NCBI GenBank assembly: GCA_043770175.1
Contig: JAYVIO010000332.1
Span: forward strand, 2,213-66,212
Direction of reading: 5' to 3'
Length of the DNA stretch: 64,000 bases
Source: Verrucomicrobiales bacterium
GTDB lineage: Bacteria; Verrucomicrobiota; Verrucomicrobiia; Verrucomicrobiales; Verrucomicrobiaceae
In this document: one piece after another, positions 60,597-64,000 of the stretch
Position numbering within the stretch: the stretch's first letter is position 1
How the letters are laid out: each line of letters begins with the position of its first letter
The notes under the pieces: model-generated
Seen by the model: the letters and a program-made list of their open reading frames with translations, nothing else
Database searches by the model: none
Told to the model about the DNA's origin: nothing
Position numbers and translations under genes: made by a program

Positions 60597-61199
60597 ATGG
60601 AACACGTTCTCGTCATCACCCGCCGTCTTTTCGACGCTCTCGGCAGCTTTCAAGGCTTTCAACCCGATGCCCCGCGCTATTTGCATGCGATGCTGGCCCC
60701 AGGAGCCAATCATTTCATGGAGCGTCCCGCTGCTGAAAAGGATCCCACGCACAAACAACTCATCCCCTACACGATTTTCCATCATGCGGGCCGTTATGTC
60801 AGCTATACCCGCGGCGGCAGCTCGGGCGAGAAACGCTTGGTGGCGAAACGCTCCATCGGCATTGGCGGTCACATCAATCCCGTGGATGCCGGTCAGGACG
60901 GTCTTGGTGAAACGATGTACTACAACGGCGTCGAGCGTGAGATGGCCGAGGAGCTGGTCATCGGCGGCACGCACACACAGAAGGTCATCGGTTTGATCAA
61001 CGACGATGCGACAGAGGTCGGCAGCGTTCACCTCGGCGTCGTGCATTTCTTTGATCTCAACAGCGACGAGGTGCGATCGAACGAGGATGCCATCCAGGAC
61101 CTGCGGTTTCACACGCTGGAGGAACTGCATGCTATGCGCGACCAGTTGGAAACGTGGTCGCAGATCTGCGTGGACCACCTCTGGAGCGTTCAAAAATAA
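60597..61199 (+). CDS. Predicted NUDIX-family phosphoesterase
   Basis: KQLIPY, SIGIGGHINP, REMAEEL and VHLGVV motifs; start trimmed to the ATG at 60597. Confidence 0.8.
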   Translation: MEHVLVITRRLFDALGSFQGFQPDAPRYLHAMLAPGANHFMERPAAEKDPTHKQLIPYTIFHHAGRYVSYTRGGSSGEKRLVAKRSIGIGGHINPVDAGQDGLGETMYYNGVEREMAEELVIGGTHTQKVIGLINDDATEVGSVHLGVVHFFDLNSDEVRSNEDAIQDLRFHTLEELHAMRDQLETWSQICVDHLWSVQK

Positions 61200-61264
61200 C
61201 TGAAATCAGCCGCCCGGGAAGAAATGCTTGTCTGTTTGCACAACGAGTGGTTTCCTTTCCTCCA

Positions 61265-61912
61265 ATGGAAGAATCACCCCTCAGCGCCGCAGCGACTCCC
61301 ATCGCTTCGCTGATCCAACCACCCGCGCCCAACAGCAGTGCAGCGGAGGATCGCATCCTCGTTGACCGGGCGCAGGCGGGTGACACCAAGGCCTTCGACG
61401 ACCTTGTGCGTAAATACACGCCCAAGCTCTACGGTCTCATTTATAACATGACCTCGAACCGGGAGGACACCGCCGACCTGCTGCAGGACGTGTTTGCCAA
61501 GGCCTACCGCTCCATCAAGCGCTTCATGGGCAAGTCTTCGTTCTATACGTGGATTTACTCCATTGCAGTGAACATGAGCCTGAATTTTCTCAAGAAGCGC
61601 GGGCGCTACCACAAGGTCAGTCTTGACGATGTAGATACCGGCATTGAGAACGATCCCGAATTCATCCGCGTGACCACGGCCAACTCCGGCACGCTTCGAG
61701 AAGTGAACATCCATGAGCTGCAAAAAAGGTTGAACGCAGCCATGATGAAGCTGTCCGAAGATCACCGCACGGTGGTGACTCTGTATGATGTACAAGGTCA
61801 CCAGCATGCCGAAATCAGCAAGATACTCGGAGTCTCGGAAGGGACGGTCAGATCCAGATTGTTTTACGCCCATCGCCTGCTCCAGACTTATCTTGAAGAT
61901 TTTGTGAAATAA
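61265..61912 (+). CDS. ECF-type RNA polymerase sigma factor
   Basis: Region 2 (DLLQDVFAKAY...FYTWIYSIAVN) and region 4 (EISKILGVSEGTVRSRLFYA). Confidence 0.93.
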   Translation: MEESPLSAAATPIASLIQPPAPNSSAAEDRILVDRAQAGDTKAFDDLVRKYTPKLYGLIYNMTSNREDTADLLQDVFAKAYRSIKRFMGKSSFYTWIYSIAVNMSLNFLKKRGRYHKVSLDDVDTGIENDPEFIRVTTANSGTLREVNIHELQKRLNAAMMKLSEDHRTVVTLYDVQGHQHAEISKILGVSEGTVRSRLFYAHRLLQTYLEDFVK

Positions 61913-61957
61913 CCCCGCGCCATTCACGAAATTAACACACACAACCCACAGCACGCC

Positions 61958-62497
61958 ATGAGTGAGTTTGAAGATATCCAGCGGTTGATCCGATTGAAAA
62001 GGTTTGAACAGCCTGAAGAAGGGTTCACAGAAGACTTCCTCCAGAAGTTTCATCAGCGGCAGCGGGCGGAGATGCTGAAGCAATCATCCCTCGAACTGCT
62101 CTGGGAACGCGCCACCACCTGGTGGGGCAACTTGTTCGTGCCCAAGTGGGGCATGGCTGCCGCTGCTATGGCGGTTTGCGCCATGGGGCTCAGGATGCTT
62201 TCGCAAAGCGCTGACACTCCAGCGCCTGCACTCACCGCAGTGCCAGCGGCGGTGCCGACATTCCCGGAGAAGCCTTTCATTCCCAAGATGGATCTCAGCG
62301 ACCTTCCGCTGGCAAACATGGCCGAACGCGGCAATGCCACGCTCGAAGACACGCTGCTCCGCAAACATCTCGAAGTGCGCTCTTCGCTCGAAGGCAATGT
62401 CTCCCCCTTGCCTGCTGGTGGTTGGCAGAAAGCCCCCGGCTTGAAAGATCTGACTCCCGCTACGGCGCATGGCACCGAAGCAGGCGCTGACAAGTAA
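61958..62497 (+). CDS. Single-TM protein, probable anti-sigma factor
   Basis: Directly downstream of the ECF sigma gene; short cytoplasmic N-domain, one TM segment, C-terminal tail. Confidence 0.6.
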   Translation: MSEFEDIQRLIRLKRFEQPEEGFTEDFLQKFHQRQRAEMLKQSSLELLWERATTWWGNLFVPKWGMAAAAMAVCAMGLRMLSQSADTPAPALTAVPAAVPTFPEKPFIPKMDLSDLPLANMAERGNATLEDTLLRKHLEVRSSLEGNVSPLPAGGWQKAPGLKDLTPATAHGTEAGADK

Positions 62498-62596
62498 TCA
62501 CGCATTCGCTTCCACGTCGGTGGGTGGTCGTGCCCACCGGCGGTTAAAACTTCTCTTTGCCAGCAGGTCGGACCCGGCGTAAAAAGTACGCCGTTC

Positions 62597-62659
62597 ATGG
62601 TCAACCGCCCTGACATCTGCCCAATCAGCCGAATTAGCATCGGACTCCTCTGCGCCTGA
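62597..62659 (+). promoter_or_regulatory. Putative leader peptide (uORF) MVNRPDICPISRISIGLLCA upstream of cimA
   Basis: 20 codons with 4 Ile, 2 Leu and 1 Val; the stop lies inside a long hairpin at 62641-62677. Confidence 0.6.
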
Positions 62660-62802
62660 CGCAGCTGAGGGAGTCCGTTGGTTTCATCCATGCCCGCGCT
62701 CCAAGCGCTCCCGGCAGCCGGCGTCCCGGAACCTTAGGCAACTGCCATCCGGCCTGTTTTCTCATTGCACACCCCTTCCACCCTCTCCATTTCCATACCC
62801 AC

Positions 62803-64000
62803 ATGTCTCCAGTTACCATCTATGACACCACCCTGCGTGACGGCACGCAAGGCACCGGCATCTCCTTCAGCACCCTCGATAAAATCCGCGTCGCCGAAAA
62901 ACTCGACGACTTCGGCGTGCATTACATCGAAGGCGGCTGGCCCGGCTCAAACCCCAAGGACGCGGCCTTCTTTGAAGAAGCCGCCAAACGTTCTTGGAAA
63001 ACCGCTAAGATCACCGCCTTCGGCATGACCCGCCGCGGCAAGATGAAGGTCGAGGACGATCCTCAGGTCAAAATGCTCCTTGATGCCAAAACCCCCGCCG
63101 TAACCGTCGTCGGCAAAACGTGGGCACTGCATGTCACCGAGGTCTTCCAGGTCAGTCTGGAAGAAAATCTCGCGATGATCGCCGATACCGTGGCCTACTT
63201 GAAAAAACATGGCCGCGAAGTGCTCTACGATGCCGAGCACTTCTTCGACAGCTTCAAGGAAGACCCGGAATACTCGCTCAAAACCGTCAAAGCCGCGCAG
63301 GATGCCGGTGCTGACCTCATCGTGCTCTGCGAAACGAATGGCGGCGCATTGCCCGAGTTCGTCGAAGACACCACACGCAAGGTCATCGCGCATCTCGGCC
63401 GCCCTGTCGGCATCCACACGCACAATGACGGTGGAGTCGGCGTCGCCAATGCGCTTGCCGCCGTGCGCGCCGGTGCCTGTCAGGTACAAGGCACCATCAA
63501 CGGCTACGGTGAACGCGTGGGGAATTGCAACCTCACCACCATCATGCCAGCACTCCAGCTCAAGATGGGCGTCGAACTTGGCCTCGATCTCACACGATTG
63601 CGCGAACTGGCCCACTTTGTTGATGAACTCGCCAACGTGCCGCATGACATCCGTGCGCCGTATGTCGGCCTCGCCGCATTCACCCACAAAGGCGGCCTGC
63701 ATGTGCATGCGGTGCAGAAACTCGCCCGCACCTACGAACACGTCGATCCCGCGCTCGTCGGCAACCAGCGCATCATCAGCATCTCCGACATGTCCGGCCA
63801 GTCGAACGTGCTCGTCAAAGCCGAGGGCATGGGTTTCAAGTTCGCCAAGGGCGATCCCAAGGTTCAATCCATCCTCGCCGAGGTCAAACGCCTCGAAAGC
63901 GAAGGCTGCGAGTTCGAAGCGGCTGAAGCATCGTTCGAAATGCTCATCCGTAAACAACTCGGTCAATACCAGCCGCTGTTCGATCTCATCGAGTATCATT
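62803..64000 (+). CDS. cimA: Citramalate synthase (partial; runs off the right edge)
   Basis: YDTTLRDGTQG, YIEGGWPGSNPKD, YDAEHFFD, HTHNDGG and GERVGNCNL motifs of bacterial CimA; not in the ORF track because no stop lies in the window. Confidence 0.9.
   Translation, partial: MSPVTIYDTTLRDGTQGTGISFSTLDKIRVAEKLDDFGVHYIEGGWPGSNPKDAAFFEEAAKRSWKTAKITAFGMTRRGKMKVEDDPQVKMLLDAKTPAVTVVGKTWALHVTEVFQVSLEENLAMIADTVAYLKKHGREVLYDAEHFFDSFKEDPEYSLKTVKAAQDAGADLIVLCETNGGALPEFVEDTTRKVIAHLGRPVGIHTHNDGGVGVANALAAVRAGACQVQGTINGYGERVGNCNLTTIMPALQLKMGVELGLDLTRLRELAHFVDELANVPHDIRAPYVGLAAFTHKGGLHVHAVQKLARTYEHVDPALVGNQRIISISDMSGQSNVLVKAEGMGFKFAKGDPKVQSILAEVKRLESEGCEFEAAEASFEMLIRKQLGQYQPLFDLIEYH

What the first reader, a model, noticed from the sequence alone, without database searches (positions are those of the whole stretch)
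62575..62802. Ile/Leu-rich leader peptide and overlapping hairpin upstream of citramalate synthase: candidate attenuator
Seen: uORF 62597-62659 (MVNRPDICPISRISIGLLCA) has 7 of 20 branched-chain codons, including 4 Ile and a Leu-Leu pair near the end. Its last codons and stop form a long stem-loop (cggactcctc-tgcg...cgca-gct-gagggagtccg, 62641-62677), followed by further GC-rich stems before cimA. Established: CimA starts the threonine-independent route to isoleucine, and amino-acid biosynthetic genes are often controlled by leader peptides rich in the end-product codon. Inference: ribosome-mediated attenuation sensing Ile/Leu; a classical U-tract terminator is not obvious, so the output may be Rho-dependent or translational. 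I am not aware of this being described for this lineage.
Basis: partly seen in the sequence, partly recalled or inferred. Interest (0 to 1): 0.7.

Follow-up and report, generated by a model that had tools for sequence, protein, structure and literature searches.

The report
Isoleucine-sensing leader peptide before cimA
A 20-codon, isoleucine-rich mini-gene and a switching RNA structure sit in front of the citramalate synthase gene and are conserved across Verrucomicrobiaceae, so this is very probably a classical "leader-peptide attenuator" that turns isoleucine synthesis up when isoleucine runs short, in a phylum where none seems to have been described.

Summary
The uORF 62597-62659, the hairpin 62641-62677 (-24.2 kcal/mol, z -3.2) and cimA (ATG 62803, TIGR00977) are all there.

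On its own the window's peptide is only weakly unusual: 4 Ile in 20 residues. Comparison makes the case. Nineteen leaders share:
- an invariant ATG 9-14 nt after a conserved -10-like box, which makes the uORF near-leaderless;
- indels only in multiples of 3;
- an invariant CGA-AUU (Arg-Ile) exactly 27 nt before a UGA/UAA stop that lies in the hairpin loop;
- 18.7% Ile, against 5.4% in the window's ORFs.

The hairpin covaries. So does a long-range helix made by the last two stop-codon bases plus the next 3 nt (62658-62662) and a downstream 5-mer (62721-62725). That helix shows at least three independent compensatory switches.

In sister clades this helix overlaps a canonical terminator, which gives the classical 1:2 / 2:3 / 3:4 attenuator. 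Distant lineages carry Ile-run uORFs before cimA.

Leucine sensing is not supported, because the Leu-Leu pair is a by-product of the hairpin arm.

The output step in the window's own clade is unresolved: intrinsic terminator, Rho-dependent termination or translational control. No experiment exists. This is a new member of a known kind.

The parts
62557..62585 (+). Promoter-like site: -35 TTGCCA (62557-62562), 17-nt spacer, -10 TAAAAA (62580-62585). The uORF ATG follows 11 nt after the -10, so the 5' UTR is predicted to be about 3-7 nt with no Shine-Dalgarno (near-leaderless).
   Evidence: TTGCCA/TTGATC/TTGCAC, then N16-17, then TAnnnT is conserved in position in all window-type leaders. The ATG lies 9-14 nt downstream. 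The tool's stricter consensus scan did not call it. There is no TSS data.
62597..62659 (+). Leader peptide uORF, 20 codons plus TGA: MVNRPDICPISRISIGLLCA. Ile codons are at 62615-17 (ATC), 62624-26 (ATC), 62633-35 (ATT) and 62639-41 (ATC).
   Evidence: ATG is invariant in 19/19 leaders. uORF length is 18-20 codons, with indels only of 3 or 6 nt. The stop is always TGA or TAA, 27 nt after CGA. Ile makes up 18.7% of residues.
62630..62636 (+). Invariant CGA-ATT-A (Arg12-Ile13): the universally conserved regulatory Ile codon, preceded by a rare Arg codon. It sits 8 nt before the base of hairpin H1.
   Evidence: Invariant columns in alignments A1 and A2. CGA is 5.5% of Arg codons and ATT is 18% of Ile codons in the window's long ORFs. 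The pattern CGAATTANNNNNGGRYTCC occurs once in the window, and in the fetched loci it matches only at the site upstream of cimA.
62641..62677 (+). Hairpin H1 (the '1:2' element). The 5' arm is the last six uORF codons. The stop codon lies in the 5-nt loop. The 3' arm is CGCAGCTGAGGGAGTCCG.
   Evidence: MFE -24.2 kcal/mol, z -3.2. 88% of cells are paired across 18 sequences, against 32-42% when the partner is slid. Covarying pairs: AU/GU/GC, CG/UA, and AU/UG/CG/UA.
62658..62673 (+). X strand of the switch helix: GACGC (the last two bases of the stop codon plus 3 nt), then GCTG and GGGAG.
   Evidence: The 5-mer has one exact downstream complement in 16/18 leaders, and 17/19 with L171. The match is type-specific. 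Shuffles give mean 2.6, maximum 9. The extended pairing appears in the stalled-ribosome fold and in the duplex calculation.
62708..62725 (+). Y strand of the switch helix: CTCCC-GG-CAGC-CG-GCGTC. The core is GCGTC at 62721-62725.
   Evidence: The CGGCGTCCCGG block is conserved in win, L001 and L002.
62678..62689 (+). U-rich tract directly after H1 (TTGGTTTCATCC): a candidate pause site or weak first terminator.
   Evidence: The tract is present in the Prosthecobacter clades (L001 TTTTTATG, L003 TTTTTTCA, L004 TTTCGTTT, L169, L171). It is absent from the other clades.
62691..62716 (+). Conserved hairpin A (TGCC-C-GCGCT-CCA-AGCGC-TCCC-GGCA). It is enclosed by the X:Y helix when that helix forms.
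   Evidence: Consensus fold of the four window-clade leaders.
62726..62766 (+). Terminal hairpin T (CCGGA 62726-30 : TCCGG 62748-52, with inner GGC:GCC), followed by the tail CCTGTTTTCTCATT. This is the candidate intrinsic terminator ('3:4').
   Evidence: Energy is -8.6 to -12.4 kcal/mol in the four window-clade leaders, with shifted but maintained pairing in L002 and L003. A hairpin plus a U/C-rich tail sits at the same place in most window-type leaders; in L163, L164 and L165 it is a canonical terminator. In the window, its overlap with X:Y is marginal.
62753..62802 (+). Pyrimidine-rich, G-poor tract up to the cimA start codon, with no Shine-Dalgarno. It may be an SD-independent translation initiation region and/or a Rho loading site.
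   Evidence: Read directly from the sequence. Similar tracts occur in relatives.
62803..64000 (+). cimA, (R)-citramalate synthase, the regulated gene. It runs off the end of the window.
   Evidence: TIGR00977 equivalog, 569 bits against a cutoff of 450. 94% identical to Prosthecobacter CimA.

Best explanation
This is an isoleucine-responsive, ribosome-mediated attenuator of cimA.

**Proposed sequence of events**
1. Transcription starts a few nucleotides before the uORF AUG, from the promoter at 62557-62585. The 20-codon leader is therefore translated as a near-leaderless mRNA.
2. Hairpin H1 (62641-62677) forms behind RNA polymerase. Together with the U-rich tract after it, H1 probably pauses polymerase until the first ribosome arrives.
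3. If Ile-tRNA is scarce, the ribosome stalls at the conserved Ile codons around CGA-AUU (62624-62641). A ribosome with AUU 62633 or AUC 62639 in its A site covers the base of H1's 5' arm. It leaves the stop-codon region (X, 62658-62673) free.
4. X then pairs with Y (62708-62725). This antiterminator-like helix interferes with the last hairpin before cimA (T, 62726-62752, plus its U/C-rich tail). Transcription continues into cimA.
5. If Ile is plentiful, the ribosome reaches the stop codon and covers X, or it has left and H1 re-forms and sequesters X. Y is then free, the terminal structure forms, and the transcript is terminated.

**Shown by sequence comparison**
- The conserved uORF and its Ile codons.
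- The fixed geometry: CGA to stop is 27 nt.
- Covariation in H1 and in X:Y.
- The overlap of X:Y with canonical terminators in sister clades.

**Inferred**
- The transcription start.
- Translation of the uORF.
- Stalling of the ribosome.
- T acting as a terminator in the window.
For: **The regulated gene**
- It is the dedicated Ile-pathway enzyme CimA.

**The uORF**
- 19 leaders were collected from loci whose upstream neighbour genes differ, so the leader travels with cimA.
- They keep an invariant ATG, indels only in multiples of 3, and a stop exactly 27 nt after the invariant CGAATTA.
- Ile is 18.7% of leader residues against 5.4% in the window's ORFs.
- The codon before CGA is Ile in 15 of 18 leaders, and toggles between ATC and ATT.

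**Breadth across cimA loci**
- Across 164 cimA loci, Ile is the residue most often found at 4 or more per 10-aa window of a forward-strand uORF: 17 loci forward against 4 on the reverse strand.
- Examples: MPMKGRIIIKSILIAIIQD (L019), MNRIFIISIISKAITIGAASIG (L092), MLHSIRISIIPIITA (L102).
- L045 and L156 also have canonical terminators.

**Hairpin H1**
- 88% of cells are paired, against 32-42% in slid controls. Three pairs covary.

**Switch helix X:Y**
- GACGC matches GCGTC in 8/8 leaders, AACGC matches GCGTT in 5/6, and GATGC matches GCATC in 3/4. Cross-type matches are close to 0.
- 16/18 leaders have an exact complement, against a shuffle mean of 2.6 and maximum of 9.
- On the CimA tree the changes map to at least 3 independent events, for example L004 against L169 and L171.

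**Overlap with the terminal hairpin in relatives**
- In L081, L163, L164 and L165, Y is the 5' arm of a hairpin followed by a U tract (AUCAAGCC...GGCUUGAU UCUUUUUC).
- With a ribosome modelled at the Ile codon, that hairpin is replaced by X:Y in L081 and L163. In L163 it is restored with a ribosome at the stop.
- In L166, X:Y extends 5 nt into the terminator's 5' arm, at -16.2 kcal/mol.

**Promoter**
- A -35/-10-like pair is conserved 9-14 nt before the ATG.
Against: - There is no transcript, TSS, Ribo-seq or reporter data. Metatranscriptome contigs were uninformative.
- In the window's own clade X:Y abuts T rather than clearly overlapping it. MFE modelling lets T form with the ribosome stalled or at the stop.
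- T is weak (-8.6 kcal/mol) and its U tract is imperfect.
- Canonical terminators are not enriched in this genome window.
- The window's peptide has only 4 scattered Ile codons, and it lacks Ile at the otherwise common position before CGA.
- The nucleotide-level invariance of CGAAUUA is not explained by Ile sensing alone.
- Third codon positions are not more variable than the others, so the coding evidence rests on ATG, frame, stop and the Ile codons.
- Many other Verrucomicrobiota cimA loci (L006, L007, L009-L017 and others) have no such uORF.
Confidence: 0.72

Rival explanations
1. Same sensor, different output. The Ile-codon uORF, H1 and X:Y control Rho-dependent termination, or cimA translation initiation or mRNA stability, rather than an intrinsic terminator. 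In this reading the long C-rich, G-poor, untranslated tract 62753-62802 is a Rho loading site or an SD-independent ribosome landing pad, and the switch alters its use.
For: - T is weak and is not clearly disrupted by X:Y in the window clade.
- Terminator-like sites are no more frequent than in shuffles across 60 kb of the window.
- A pyrimidine-rich, G-poor tract without SD precedes cimA in all window-type leaders.
Against: - Sister clades with the homologous leader have canonical hairpin-plus-U-tract terminators overlapped by X:Y. L045 and L156 have textbook terminators.
- The pyrimidine tract stays unpaired in all modelled states, so no obvious structural switch acts on it.
Confidence: 0.2
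2. H1 plus the U-rich tract after it (62641-62689) is itself the regulated terminator. A ribosome stalled at Ile13 or Ile15 physically covers its 5' arm and prevents termination (two-state occlusion, related to pyrBI-type coupling). No downstream terminator would be needed.
For: - A strong hairpin is followed by UUGGUUUC in the window, and by UUUUUAUG, UUUUUUCA, UUUCGUUU, UUUGAUUU and UUUGCUUU in the nearest clades.
- The Ile codons lie 0-8 nt from the hairpin base, and that spacing is invariant.
Against: - The U tract after H1 is absent in 11 of 19 homologous leaders (L005, L026, L161, L166-168, clade B), yet H1 is conserved.
- A ribosome reaching the stop codon in the loop would block H1 as well, so high Ile would not give termination unless extra assumptions about timing are made (inference).
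- This model does not explain the covarying X:Y helix.
Confidence: 0.06
3. The conserved block is not translated. It would be a structured leader RNA or a protein- or ligand-binding element (riboswitch-like, or an RNA-binding regulator recognising AUYCGAAUUA), and the ORF would be incidental.
For: - CGAAUUA is invariant at the nucleotide level, including synonymous positions.
- There is no three-base periodicity in variability.
- Conservation of the stop codon can partly be explained by the X:Y pairing.
Against: - The ATG is invariant at a fixed distance from a -10-like box.
- All length changes between ATG and CGA are 3 or 6 nt.
- There are no in-frame stops in 19 divergent N-terminal halves.
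- ATC/ATT toggling keeps Ile.
- Unrelated-looking leaders in distant lineages share only the Ile-rich uORF.
- No Rfam family matches.
Confidence: 0.05

Closest known systems
Enterobacterial ilvGMEDA / ilvBN and trp/his leader-peptide attenuators (classical ribosome-mediated transcription attenuation)
   Same: - A short leader ORF enriched in codons of the end-product amino acid.
- A stop codon at the loop of a first hairpin (1:2), which in trp also acts as the pause hairpin.
- Mutually exclusive 2:3 (antiterminator) and 3:4 (terminator) pairings. These are seen cleanly in L081, L163, L164, L165 and L166.
   Different: - No sequence relationship, and no Rfam hit.
- The regulated gene is cimA, the pyruvate route to Ile.
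- Only Ile is sensed, not Leu or Val.
- The uORF has no Shine-Dalgarno and starts about 3-7 nt from the predicted TSS.
- The stop codon itself is part of the antiterminator helix and covaries with it.
- The terminator in the window's clade is weak or unclear.
Leaderless polycysteine short ORFs acting as Cys-responsive attenuators in mycobacteria (bioRxiv 10.1101/834739)
   Same: A leaderless or near-leaderless short ORF at the 5' end of a biosynthetic transcript, whose translation through codons of the end-product amino acid sets downstream expression.
   Different: A different phylum, amino acid and gene. Here the leaderless status is only predicted from a conserved -10 box, and conserved RNA switch helices are evident.
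ilvB-II, ilvB-OMG and ilvB uORF motifs (Narunsky et al. 2023, PMC10272879)
   Same: These were found as conserved RNA motifs upstream of a branched-chain amino-acid gene. All carry an in-frame start and stop, and encode BCAA-rich peptides. They are interpreted as uORF attenuators.
   Different: Those motifs precede ilvB and are rich in Val/Leu/Ile/Thr. The present family precedes cimA, is Ile-specific, occurs in Verrucomicrobiaceae, and does not match those Rfam models.
T-box riboswitches upstream of leuA/cimA-family genes in Bacillota (PMC12452182)
   Same: The same regulatory logic: the charging state of a tRNA controls a leuA/cimA-family gene through an antiterminator/terminator switch in the leader.
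   Different: A T-box binds uncharged tRNA directly and needs no translation. No T-box model matches here or in 20 other cimA loci tested.

Membership tests
Leader-peptide (ribosome-mediated) transcription attenuator | A short ORF in the 5' leader of an amino-acid biosynthetic gene, with start, frame and stop conserved among orthologous leaders | tested here: met
   19/19 leaders have an invariant ATG, 18-20 codons, indels only of 3 or 6 nt, and a stop 27 nt after CGA.
Leader-peptide (ribosome-mediated) transcription attenuator | Enrichment of codons for the pathway's end product at conserved positions | tested here: met
   Ile is 18.7% of leader residues against a 5.4% background. The core I-R-I is conserved, and ATC/ATT toggling keeps Ile. 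Ile is the residue most often enriched in forward-strand uORFs, 17 loci against 4 on the reverse strand. Leu and Val are not enriched.
Leader-peptide (ribosome-mediated) transcription attenuator | Alternative, mutually exclusive RNA pairings whose choice depends on ribosome position (1:2, 2:3, 3:4) | tested here: inconclusive
   H1 (1:2) and X:Y (2:3) are supported by covariation. They share the CGC of X, so they exclude each other. Exclusion of the terminal hairpin by X:Y is clear in L081, L163-L166, L170 and L004. In the window clade it is only marginal.
Leader-peptide (ribosome-mediated) transcription attenuator | An intrinsic terminator between the leader ORF and the structural gene | tested here: inconclusive
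   Window: hairpin 62726-62752 at -8.6 kcal/mol, followed by CCUGUUUUCUCAUU. It is not called by the consensus scan. Sister clades have canonical terminators.
Leader-peptide (ribosome-mediated) transcription attenuator | Expression of the downstream gene responds to the supply of the charged cognate tRNA through uORF translation | not testable with these tools
   No cultured-strain RNA-seq, Ribo-seq or reporter data were available. Metatranscriptome contigs were uninformative.
Leaderless short-ORF attenuators | The uORF start codon lies at, or within a few nt of, the transcription start, with no Shine-Dalgarno | tested here: inconclusive
   A conserved -35/-10-like pair ends 9-14 nt before the ATG in 19 window-type leaders, and 8 nt before it in L018, L093, L094 and L102. 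No SD is visible. The TSS has not been mapped.
T-box riboswitch | Stem I with specifier loop and the conserved T-box sequence (Rfam RF00230) | tested here: not met
   No Rfam match at E up to 10 in 62300-63000 apart from two meaningless hits. None in related leaders.
Known Rfam leader or uORF motifs (Leu/Thr/His/Trp leaders, ilvB-OMG and others) | A match to the family covariance model | tested here: not met
   no hits.
pyrBI-type coupling attenuator (leader ORF running into the terminator hairpin) | The terminator hairpin overlapped by the leader ORF is the regulated terminator, and it is conserved with its U tract | tested here: not met
   The uORF does overlap H1. However, the U tract after H1 is missing in 11 of 19 homologous leaders, and a further conserved switch helix lies downstream.

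The most novel reading that the evidence does not exclude
The invariant rare dicodon CGA-AUU is a programmed slow-decoding site: an inosine:A wobble in the P site followed by a G:U-read Ile codon in the A site. Placed a fixed 8 nt before H1 in a leaderless uORF, it would let just one or two Ile codons, rather than a long run, act as a sharp Ile-tRNA sensor. The attenuator would then couple 70S leaderless initiation, a built-in decoding bottleneck, and a stop codon that is itself a base-paired part of the antiterminator. That design has not been described for classical attenuators. A related reading is that the output is Rho-dependent, via the C-rich tract.
Probability: 0.15. Interest if true: 0.75.

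Novelty: new member of a known kind. Interest (0 to 1): 0.55.

Why it matters
- **Phylum.** Leader-peptide attenuation has been documented mainly in Proteobacteria and Actinobacteria, with a few cases in Firmicutes (PMC2965389). Full-text searches found no report of a cimA leader peptide, and a search pairing Verrucomicrobia with leader-peptide terms surfaced nothing relevant among the papers listed. A conserved, Ile-specific attenuator on cimA would be a first cis-regulatory RNA for amino-acid biosynthesis in Verrucomicrobiaceae.
- **Pathway annotation.** It would confirm from regulation that these TIGR00977 genes serve isoleucine synthesis, which is useful for metabolic annotation of MAGs.
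- **A tractable example.** It offers a compact, near-leaderless attenuator in which the stop codon is part of the switch helix.
- **Cultured strains.** Prosthecobacter fluviatilis KACC 12649 (L003) and Brevifollis gellanilyticus NBRC 108608 (L026) carry it, so it can be tested directly.
- **Annotation fix.** It also flags an unannotated 20-codon gene and some mis-called cimA starts.

Tried and rejected
- **Rfam.** Searches of the leader, of related leaders and of 20 non-verrucomicrobial cimA loci matched no known family. My recollection that Geobacter-type cimA carries an Ile T-box was not borne out in the one Geobacteraceae MAG examined, so I do not rely on it.
- **Consensus scan.** The promoter/terminator scan called nothing in the leader.
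- **RNA data.** No RNA run holds the window. Four metatranscriptomes hold related sequence only as low-depth contigs, without usable 5' or 3' ends.
- **Partner for CGAAUUA.** I looked for a conserved downstream pairing partner for the invariant CGAAUUA. Only inconsistent matches to U-rich tracts turned up, so this was rejected.
- **Ribosome-masked folding.** MFE folding of 18 leaders with the ribosome masked gives a clean switch in clade B. It is noisy and non-discriminating in the window clade.
- **Alternative terminator T'.** T' (GCAGCCGG 62714-21: CCGG-C-CUGU 62749-57) would be excluded by X:Y. It is poorly conserved in L001-L003, so it is kept only as a possibility.
- **Covariance model.** None was built. 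MAFFT returned an ungapped alignment that misplaces the 3' arm in one clade. A simple pattern search served instead.
- **Leu sensing.** Rejected.
- **Lost look-up.** One look-up (P0002) returned no DNA.
Full report
**1. What is in the window.**

The 305-nt spacer lies between a putative anti-sigma ORF (61958-62497, downstream of an ECF sigma gene) and the next gene.
- It contains one plausible ATG-initiated small ORF on the + strand, 62597-62659, encoding MVNRPDICPISRISIGLLCA.
- The next gene starts at ATG 62803. It matches the citramalate synthase equivalog TIGR00977 at 569 bits (cutoff 450), although it is truncated by the window end.
- The last six codons form its 5' arm, and the TGA lies in its loop.
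- Rfam has nothing for this region. The consensus scan calls neither a promoter nor a terminator.
- By itself the peptide is only mildly unusual: 4 Ile in 20 codons against 5.4% Ile in the window's long ORFs. The whole leader does not fold better than shuffles. The case therefore has to rest on comparison.

**2. Comparative evidence for the uORF.**

I collected cimA loci without regard to what lies upstream.
- 80 came from species genomes and 80 from metagenomes.
- 11 more came from CimA homologues at 86-93% identity.
- Together with the window, nineteen leaders are clearly homologous: the window, L001-L005, L026, L081 and L161-L171 (Prosthecobacter, Brevifollis and other Verrucomicrobiaceae).
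- The genes upstream differ from locus to locus (DnaG, amidohydrolase, MacB, aminotransferase and others). The leader therefore travels with cimA.

All nineteen share the following:
- an invariant ATG;
- a uORF of 18-20 codons whose length differences are only 3 or 6 nt;
- an invariant CGA-ATT-A;
- a stop codon (TGA or TAA) exactly 27 nt after the C of CGA.

The peptides read M-x(5-8)-(I)-x-I-R-I-(S/I/T)-x-G-(L/F)-x-x-(A/D).
- Ile is 18.7% of residues, with 3-6 per peptide.
- The codon before CGA is Ile in 15 of 18 leaders and toggles between ATC and ATT.
- The window's Leu-Leu is encoded by the hairpin arm. Elsewhere it is GFH, GLP, GLH or GLI. Val is 1%. So the signal is Ile, not Ile/Leu.
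- The pattern CGAATTA-N5-GGRYTCC occurs once in the 64-kb window, and in the fetched loci it matches only at the site upstream of cimA.

**3. A conserved promoter makes the uORF near-leaderless.**

- A -35-like TTGCCA (or TTGATC, TTGCAC), a 16-17-nt spacer and a -10-like TAnnnT are conserved in position in all window-type leaders.
- The ATG follows 9-14 nt after the -10. In the window these are TTGCCA 62557-62562, TAAAAA 62580-62585 and ATG 62597.
- No Shine-Dalgarno is visible.
- More distant Ile-uORFs have an even tighter layout: TTGTCA-N17-TATCAT-8 nt-ATG in L093, and similar in L018, L094 and L102.
- The transcription start is inferred, not measured.

**4. Wider distribution.**

- Among 164 cimA loci, uORFs with at least 4 Ile in 10 residues occur in 17 loci on the forward strand and 4 on the reverse strand.
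- No other amino acid reaches 17. The GC-rich-codon residues (A, R, G) are similar on the two strands.
- Examples:

| Locus | Leader peptide |
|---|---|
| L019 | MPMKGRIIIKSILIAIIQD |
| L018 | MGTESDAFSSIIITAIMIG |
| L092 | MNRIFIISIISKAITIGAASIG |
| L093 | MQLSIRILHIPIFIA |
| L102 | MLHSIRISIIPIITA |
| L045 | MSNRIPSAISISGSIMIGRRPGHGNGA |

- L045 and L156 are followed by textbook terminators (ccccgggc...gcccggggtttttt).
- An Anaerolineae locus (L038) has ...CISIIIIGQG*, with the stop inside a 14-bp hairpin.
- Many other Verrucomicrobiota loci (Chthoniobacterales-like, Akkermansiaceae) have no such uORF. The element is lineage-restricted.

**5. RNA structure: H1.**

- On an 18-sequence alignment, the 13 pairs of H1 are formed in 88% of cells. 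With the 3' partner slid by 1-3 columns the figure is 32-42%.
- Three pairs covary: AU/GU/GC 6:6:6; CG/UA 12:5; and AU/UG/CG/UA.
- The GGACUC/GAGUCC to GGGUUC/GAACCC change couples a synonymous Gly change and a Leu-to-Phe change in the uORF to changes in the non-coding 3' arm.

**6. RNA structure: a long-range switch helix that includes the stop codon.**

- The 5-mer made of the last two bases of the stop codon plus the next three bases has exactly one perfect reverse complement 57-75 nt downstream in 16 of 18 leaders, and also in L171. In the window this is X, GACGC, 62658-62662.
- Mononucleotide shuffles give a mean of 2.6 and a maximum of 9.
- The match is type-specific:

| X 5-mer | Matching Y 5-mer | Leaders with exact match |
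|---|---|---|
| GACGC | GCGTC | 8/8 |
| AACGC | GCGTT | 5/6 |
| GATGC | GCATC | 3/4 (the fourth keeps a G·U) |

- Cross-type matches are close to zero.
- On a CimA tree the changes map to at least three independent events. TAA arises in L004 but not in its sisters L169 and L171. TAA also arises in the L005/L026/L161/L167/L168 clade but not in L166. TGATGC arises in clade B.
- Whether the stop is UGA or UAA therefore covaries with a base about 65 nt away.
- X shares its CGC with H1's inner stem, so H1 and X:Y exclude each other.
- In the window the helix extends: GACGC:GCGUC, GCUG:CAGC and GGGAG:CUCCC, pairing 62658-62673 with 62708-62725.
- The same layout is visible in the distant L093/L094/L102 group, where the stop UAG plus GGCGCU pairs with AGCGCC about 55 nt downstream.

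**7. The output element.**

- In L081, L163, L164 and L165, Y is the 5' arm of a hairpin followed by a U tract (for example AUCAAGCC-N14-GGCUUGAU UCUUUUUC).
- I folded these leaders with a ribosome footprint placed at three positions. With no ribosome, L163 and L164 form that hairpin, and L163 and L165 fold the stop-codon region into a local hairpin different from H1. With the ribosome at the conserved Ile codon, X:Y replaces the terminal hairpin in L081 and L163. With the ribosome at the stop codon, L163 forms the hairpin again.
- That is the classical 1:2 / 2:3 / 3:4 logic.
- In L166, X:Y extends 5 nt into the terminator's 5' arm (-16.2 kcal/mol). In L170 and L004, Y lies in the terminal hairpin's loop or 5' arm.
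- In the window's own clade the homologous terminal hairpin is T: CCGGA 62726-30: UCCGG 62748-52, at -8.6 to -12.4 kcal/mol. Its pairing is kept through shifted changes in L002 and L003, and it is followed by CCUGUUUUCUCAUU.
- There, X:Y only abuts T. At most a 4-bp extension, UCUG:CGGA, reaches into it, and MFE models allow T in all ribosome states.
- An alternative hairpin T' that X:Y would exclude is poorly conserved.
- Canonical terminators are not enriched over shuffles elsewhere in the window.
- A 50-nt C-rich, G-poor tract without SD precedes cimA.
- The sensing half of the device is therefore well supported. Whether the window's output is an intrinsic terminator, Rho-dependent termination, or something else is not settled.

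**8. The U tract after H1.**

- In the window and its nearest clades H1 is followed by a U-rich run: UUGGUUUC, UUUUUAUG, UUUUUUCA, UUUCGUUU, UUUGAUUU and UUUGCUUU.
- This run is absent from the other eleven leaders.
- I read it as a pause site, or as a partial terminator for untranslated transcripts. This follows the trp 1:2 pause hairpin, which holds polymerase until the ribosome arrives (established knowledge; inference here).
- I do not read it as the regulated terminator, for two reasons. A ribosome at the stop codon in the loop would block H1 just as a stalled one does. This model also leaves X:Y unexplained.

**9. Geometry supports stalling at the conserved Ile.**

- With AUU 62633 in the A site, a bacterial ribosome should protect roughly 12-13 nt further (established footprint size; inference). 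That reaches about 62646, into the base of H1 (62641-), while X (62658-) stays free.
- With AUC 62639 in the A site, the whole lower stem is covered.
- With the stop in the A site, X is covered.
- The invariant distances fit such a ruler: CGA to H1 base is 11 nt, and CGA to stop is 27 nt, in 19/19 leaders.

**10. Unexplained.**

- CGA-AUU-A is invariant at the nucleotide level. It is built from two non-preferred codons: CGA is 5.5% of Arg codons and AUU is 18% of Ile codons.
- No conserved pairing partner was found for it.
- Possible readings are a programmed slow-decoding dicodon that sharpens Ile sensing, a nuclease site, or a protein site. None was tested.

**11. Comparison with what is known, and novelty.**

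- The device works like the classical enterobacterial ilv/trp/his attenuators and like the uORF motifs before ilvB (PMC10272879).
- In its near-leaderless start it resembles the mycobacterial polycysteine sORF attenuators (10.1101/834739).
- It is not a T-box and does not match any Rfam family.
- Full-text searches found no description of a cimA leader peptide. A search for leader-peptide attenuation in Verrucomicrobia surfaced nothing relevant among the papers listed. A 2010 survey states that leader peptides were then known only in Proteobacteria and Actinobacteria, plus a Firmicutes case (PMC2965389).
- I therefore class it as a new member of a known kind.

**Verdict.** Mechanism confidence is about 0.7 for an Ile-responsive leader-peptide attenuator, and about even odds for an intrinsic terminator as the output in this particular clade. 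Interest is moderate.

Noticed in passing
window 62630-62636 (and the same site in L001-L005, L026, L081, L161-L171): CGA-ATT-A is invariant at the nucleotide level in 19/19 leaders. It is made of two non-preferred codons: CGA is 5.5% of Arg and ATT is 18% of Ile in the window's ORFs. Distant leaders keep a similar core (ATA-CGA-ATT, ATT-CGA-ATA, ATT-TCG-ATT-AGC). It may be a programmed slow-decoding site, but this is unexplained.
   Followed up: partly
window 62515-62542: A strong 12-bp hairpin sits 18 nt after the stop of the putative anti-sigma ORF (61958-62497), followed by UUAAAACUUCUCUUU. It probably marks the 3' end of the ECF sigma/anti-sigma operon (61154-62497). The anti-sigma candidate has no NCBIfam hit.
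   Followed up: no
window 1-60000: Consensus terminator-like sites are no more frequent than in shuffled sequence (31 vs 18.7, 19 vs 20.1, 19 vs 19.1). Canonical intrinsic terminators therefore seem rare in this genome, which bears on how any attenuator here terminates.
   Followed up: partly
window 62753-62802: A 50-nt pyrimidine-rich, almost G-free tract with no Shine-Dalgarno lies directly before the cimA start codon. Comparable tracts occur in all related leaders. It could be an SD-independent ribosome landing pad or a Rho loading site.
   Followed up: no
L038 (Anaerolineae MAG), L142, L156 (metagenome contigs), upstream of cimA: Ile-run uORFs occur before cimA outside Verrucomicrobiota (...CISIIIIGQG*, ...SIAIRSIIITSPVG*, ...SAIIITSASGLIIGSGAAAS*). 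L156 has a canonical terminator. The cimA Ile leader may be much more widespread, or may have evolved convergently.
   Followed up: partly
L018 and L092, about 60-190 nt upstream of cimA: Two distant loci share a long conserved hairpin, GGUGAUUGCGAAUCGGU...ACCGAAUCGGGAUCACC. Its 5' arm overlaps the 3' arm of the stop-codon hairpin of their Ile-rich uORFs. This is a second family of cimA leaders with its own switch.
   Followed up: no
L093, L094, L102, upstream of cimA: These loci come from an AT-rich lineage. The uORF MQLSIRILHIPIFIA (and its variants) starts 8 nt after a near-consensus -10. The bases after its UAG stop (GGCGCU) pair with AGCGCC, AGCGUC or GCGCC about 55 nt downstream. This is the same stop-codon/X:Y layout as in the window.
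   Followed up: partly
L007 and L009, 150-260 nt upstream of cimA: The two loci (77% CimA identity) share a conserved upstream block (…gccccgatttccacatccctcgtcagattcc…) without an Ile-rich uORF. It may be a different regulatory element or a gene remnant.
   Followed up: no
proteins P0026 (557 aa), P0031 and P0046 (545 aa): Some database CimA predictions are 25-35 residues longer at the N terminus than their relatives. Gene callers may have placed the start inside the leader region.
   Followed up: no
window 62053-62691 (- strand) and 62634-62819 (- strand): Long reverse-strand ORFs (212 aa and 61 aa) overlap the anti-sigma gene and the leader. I judged them to be shadow ORFs of a GC-rich sequence and did not examine them further.
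   Followed up: no
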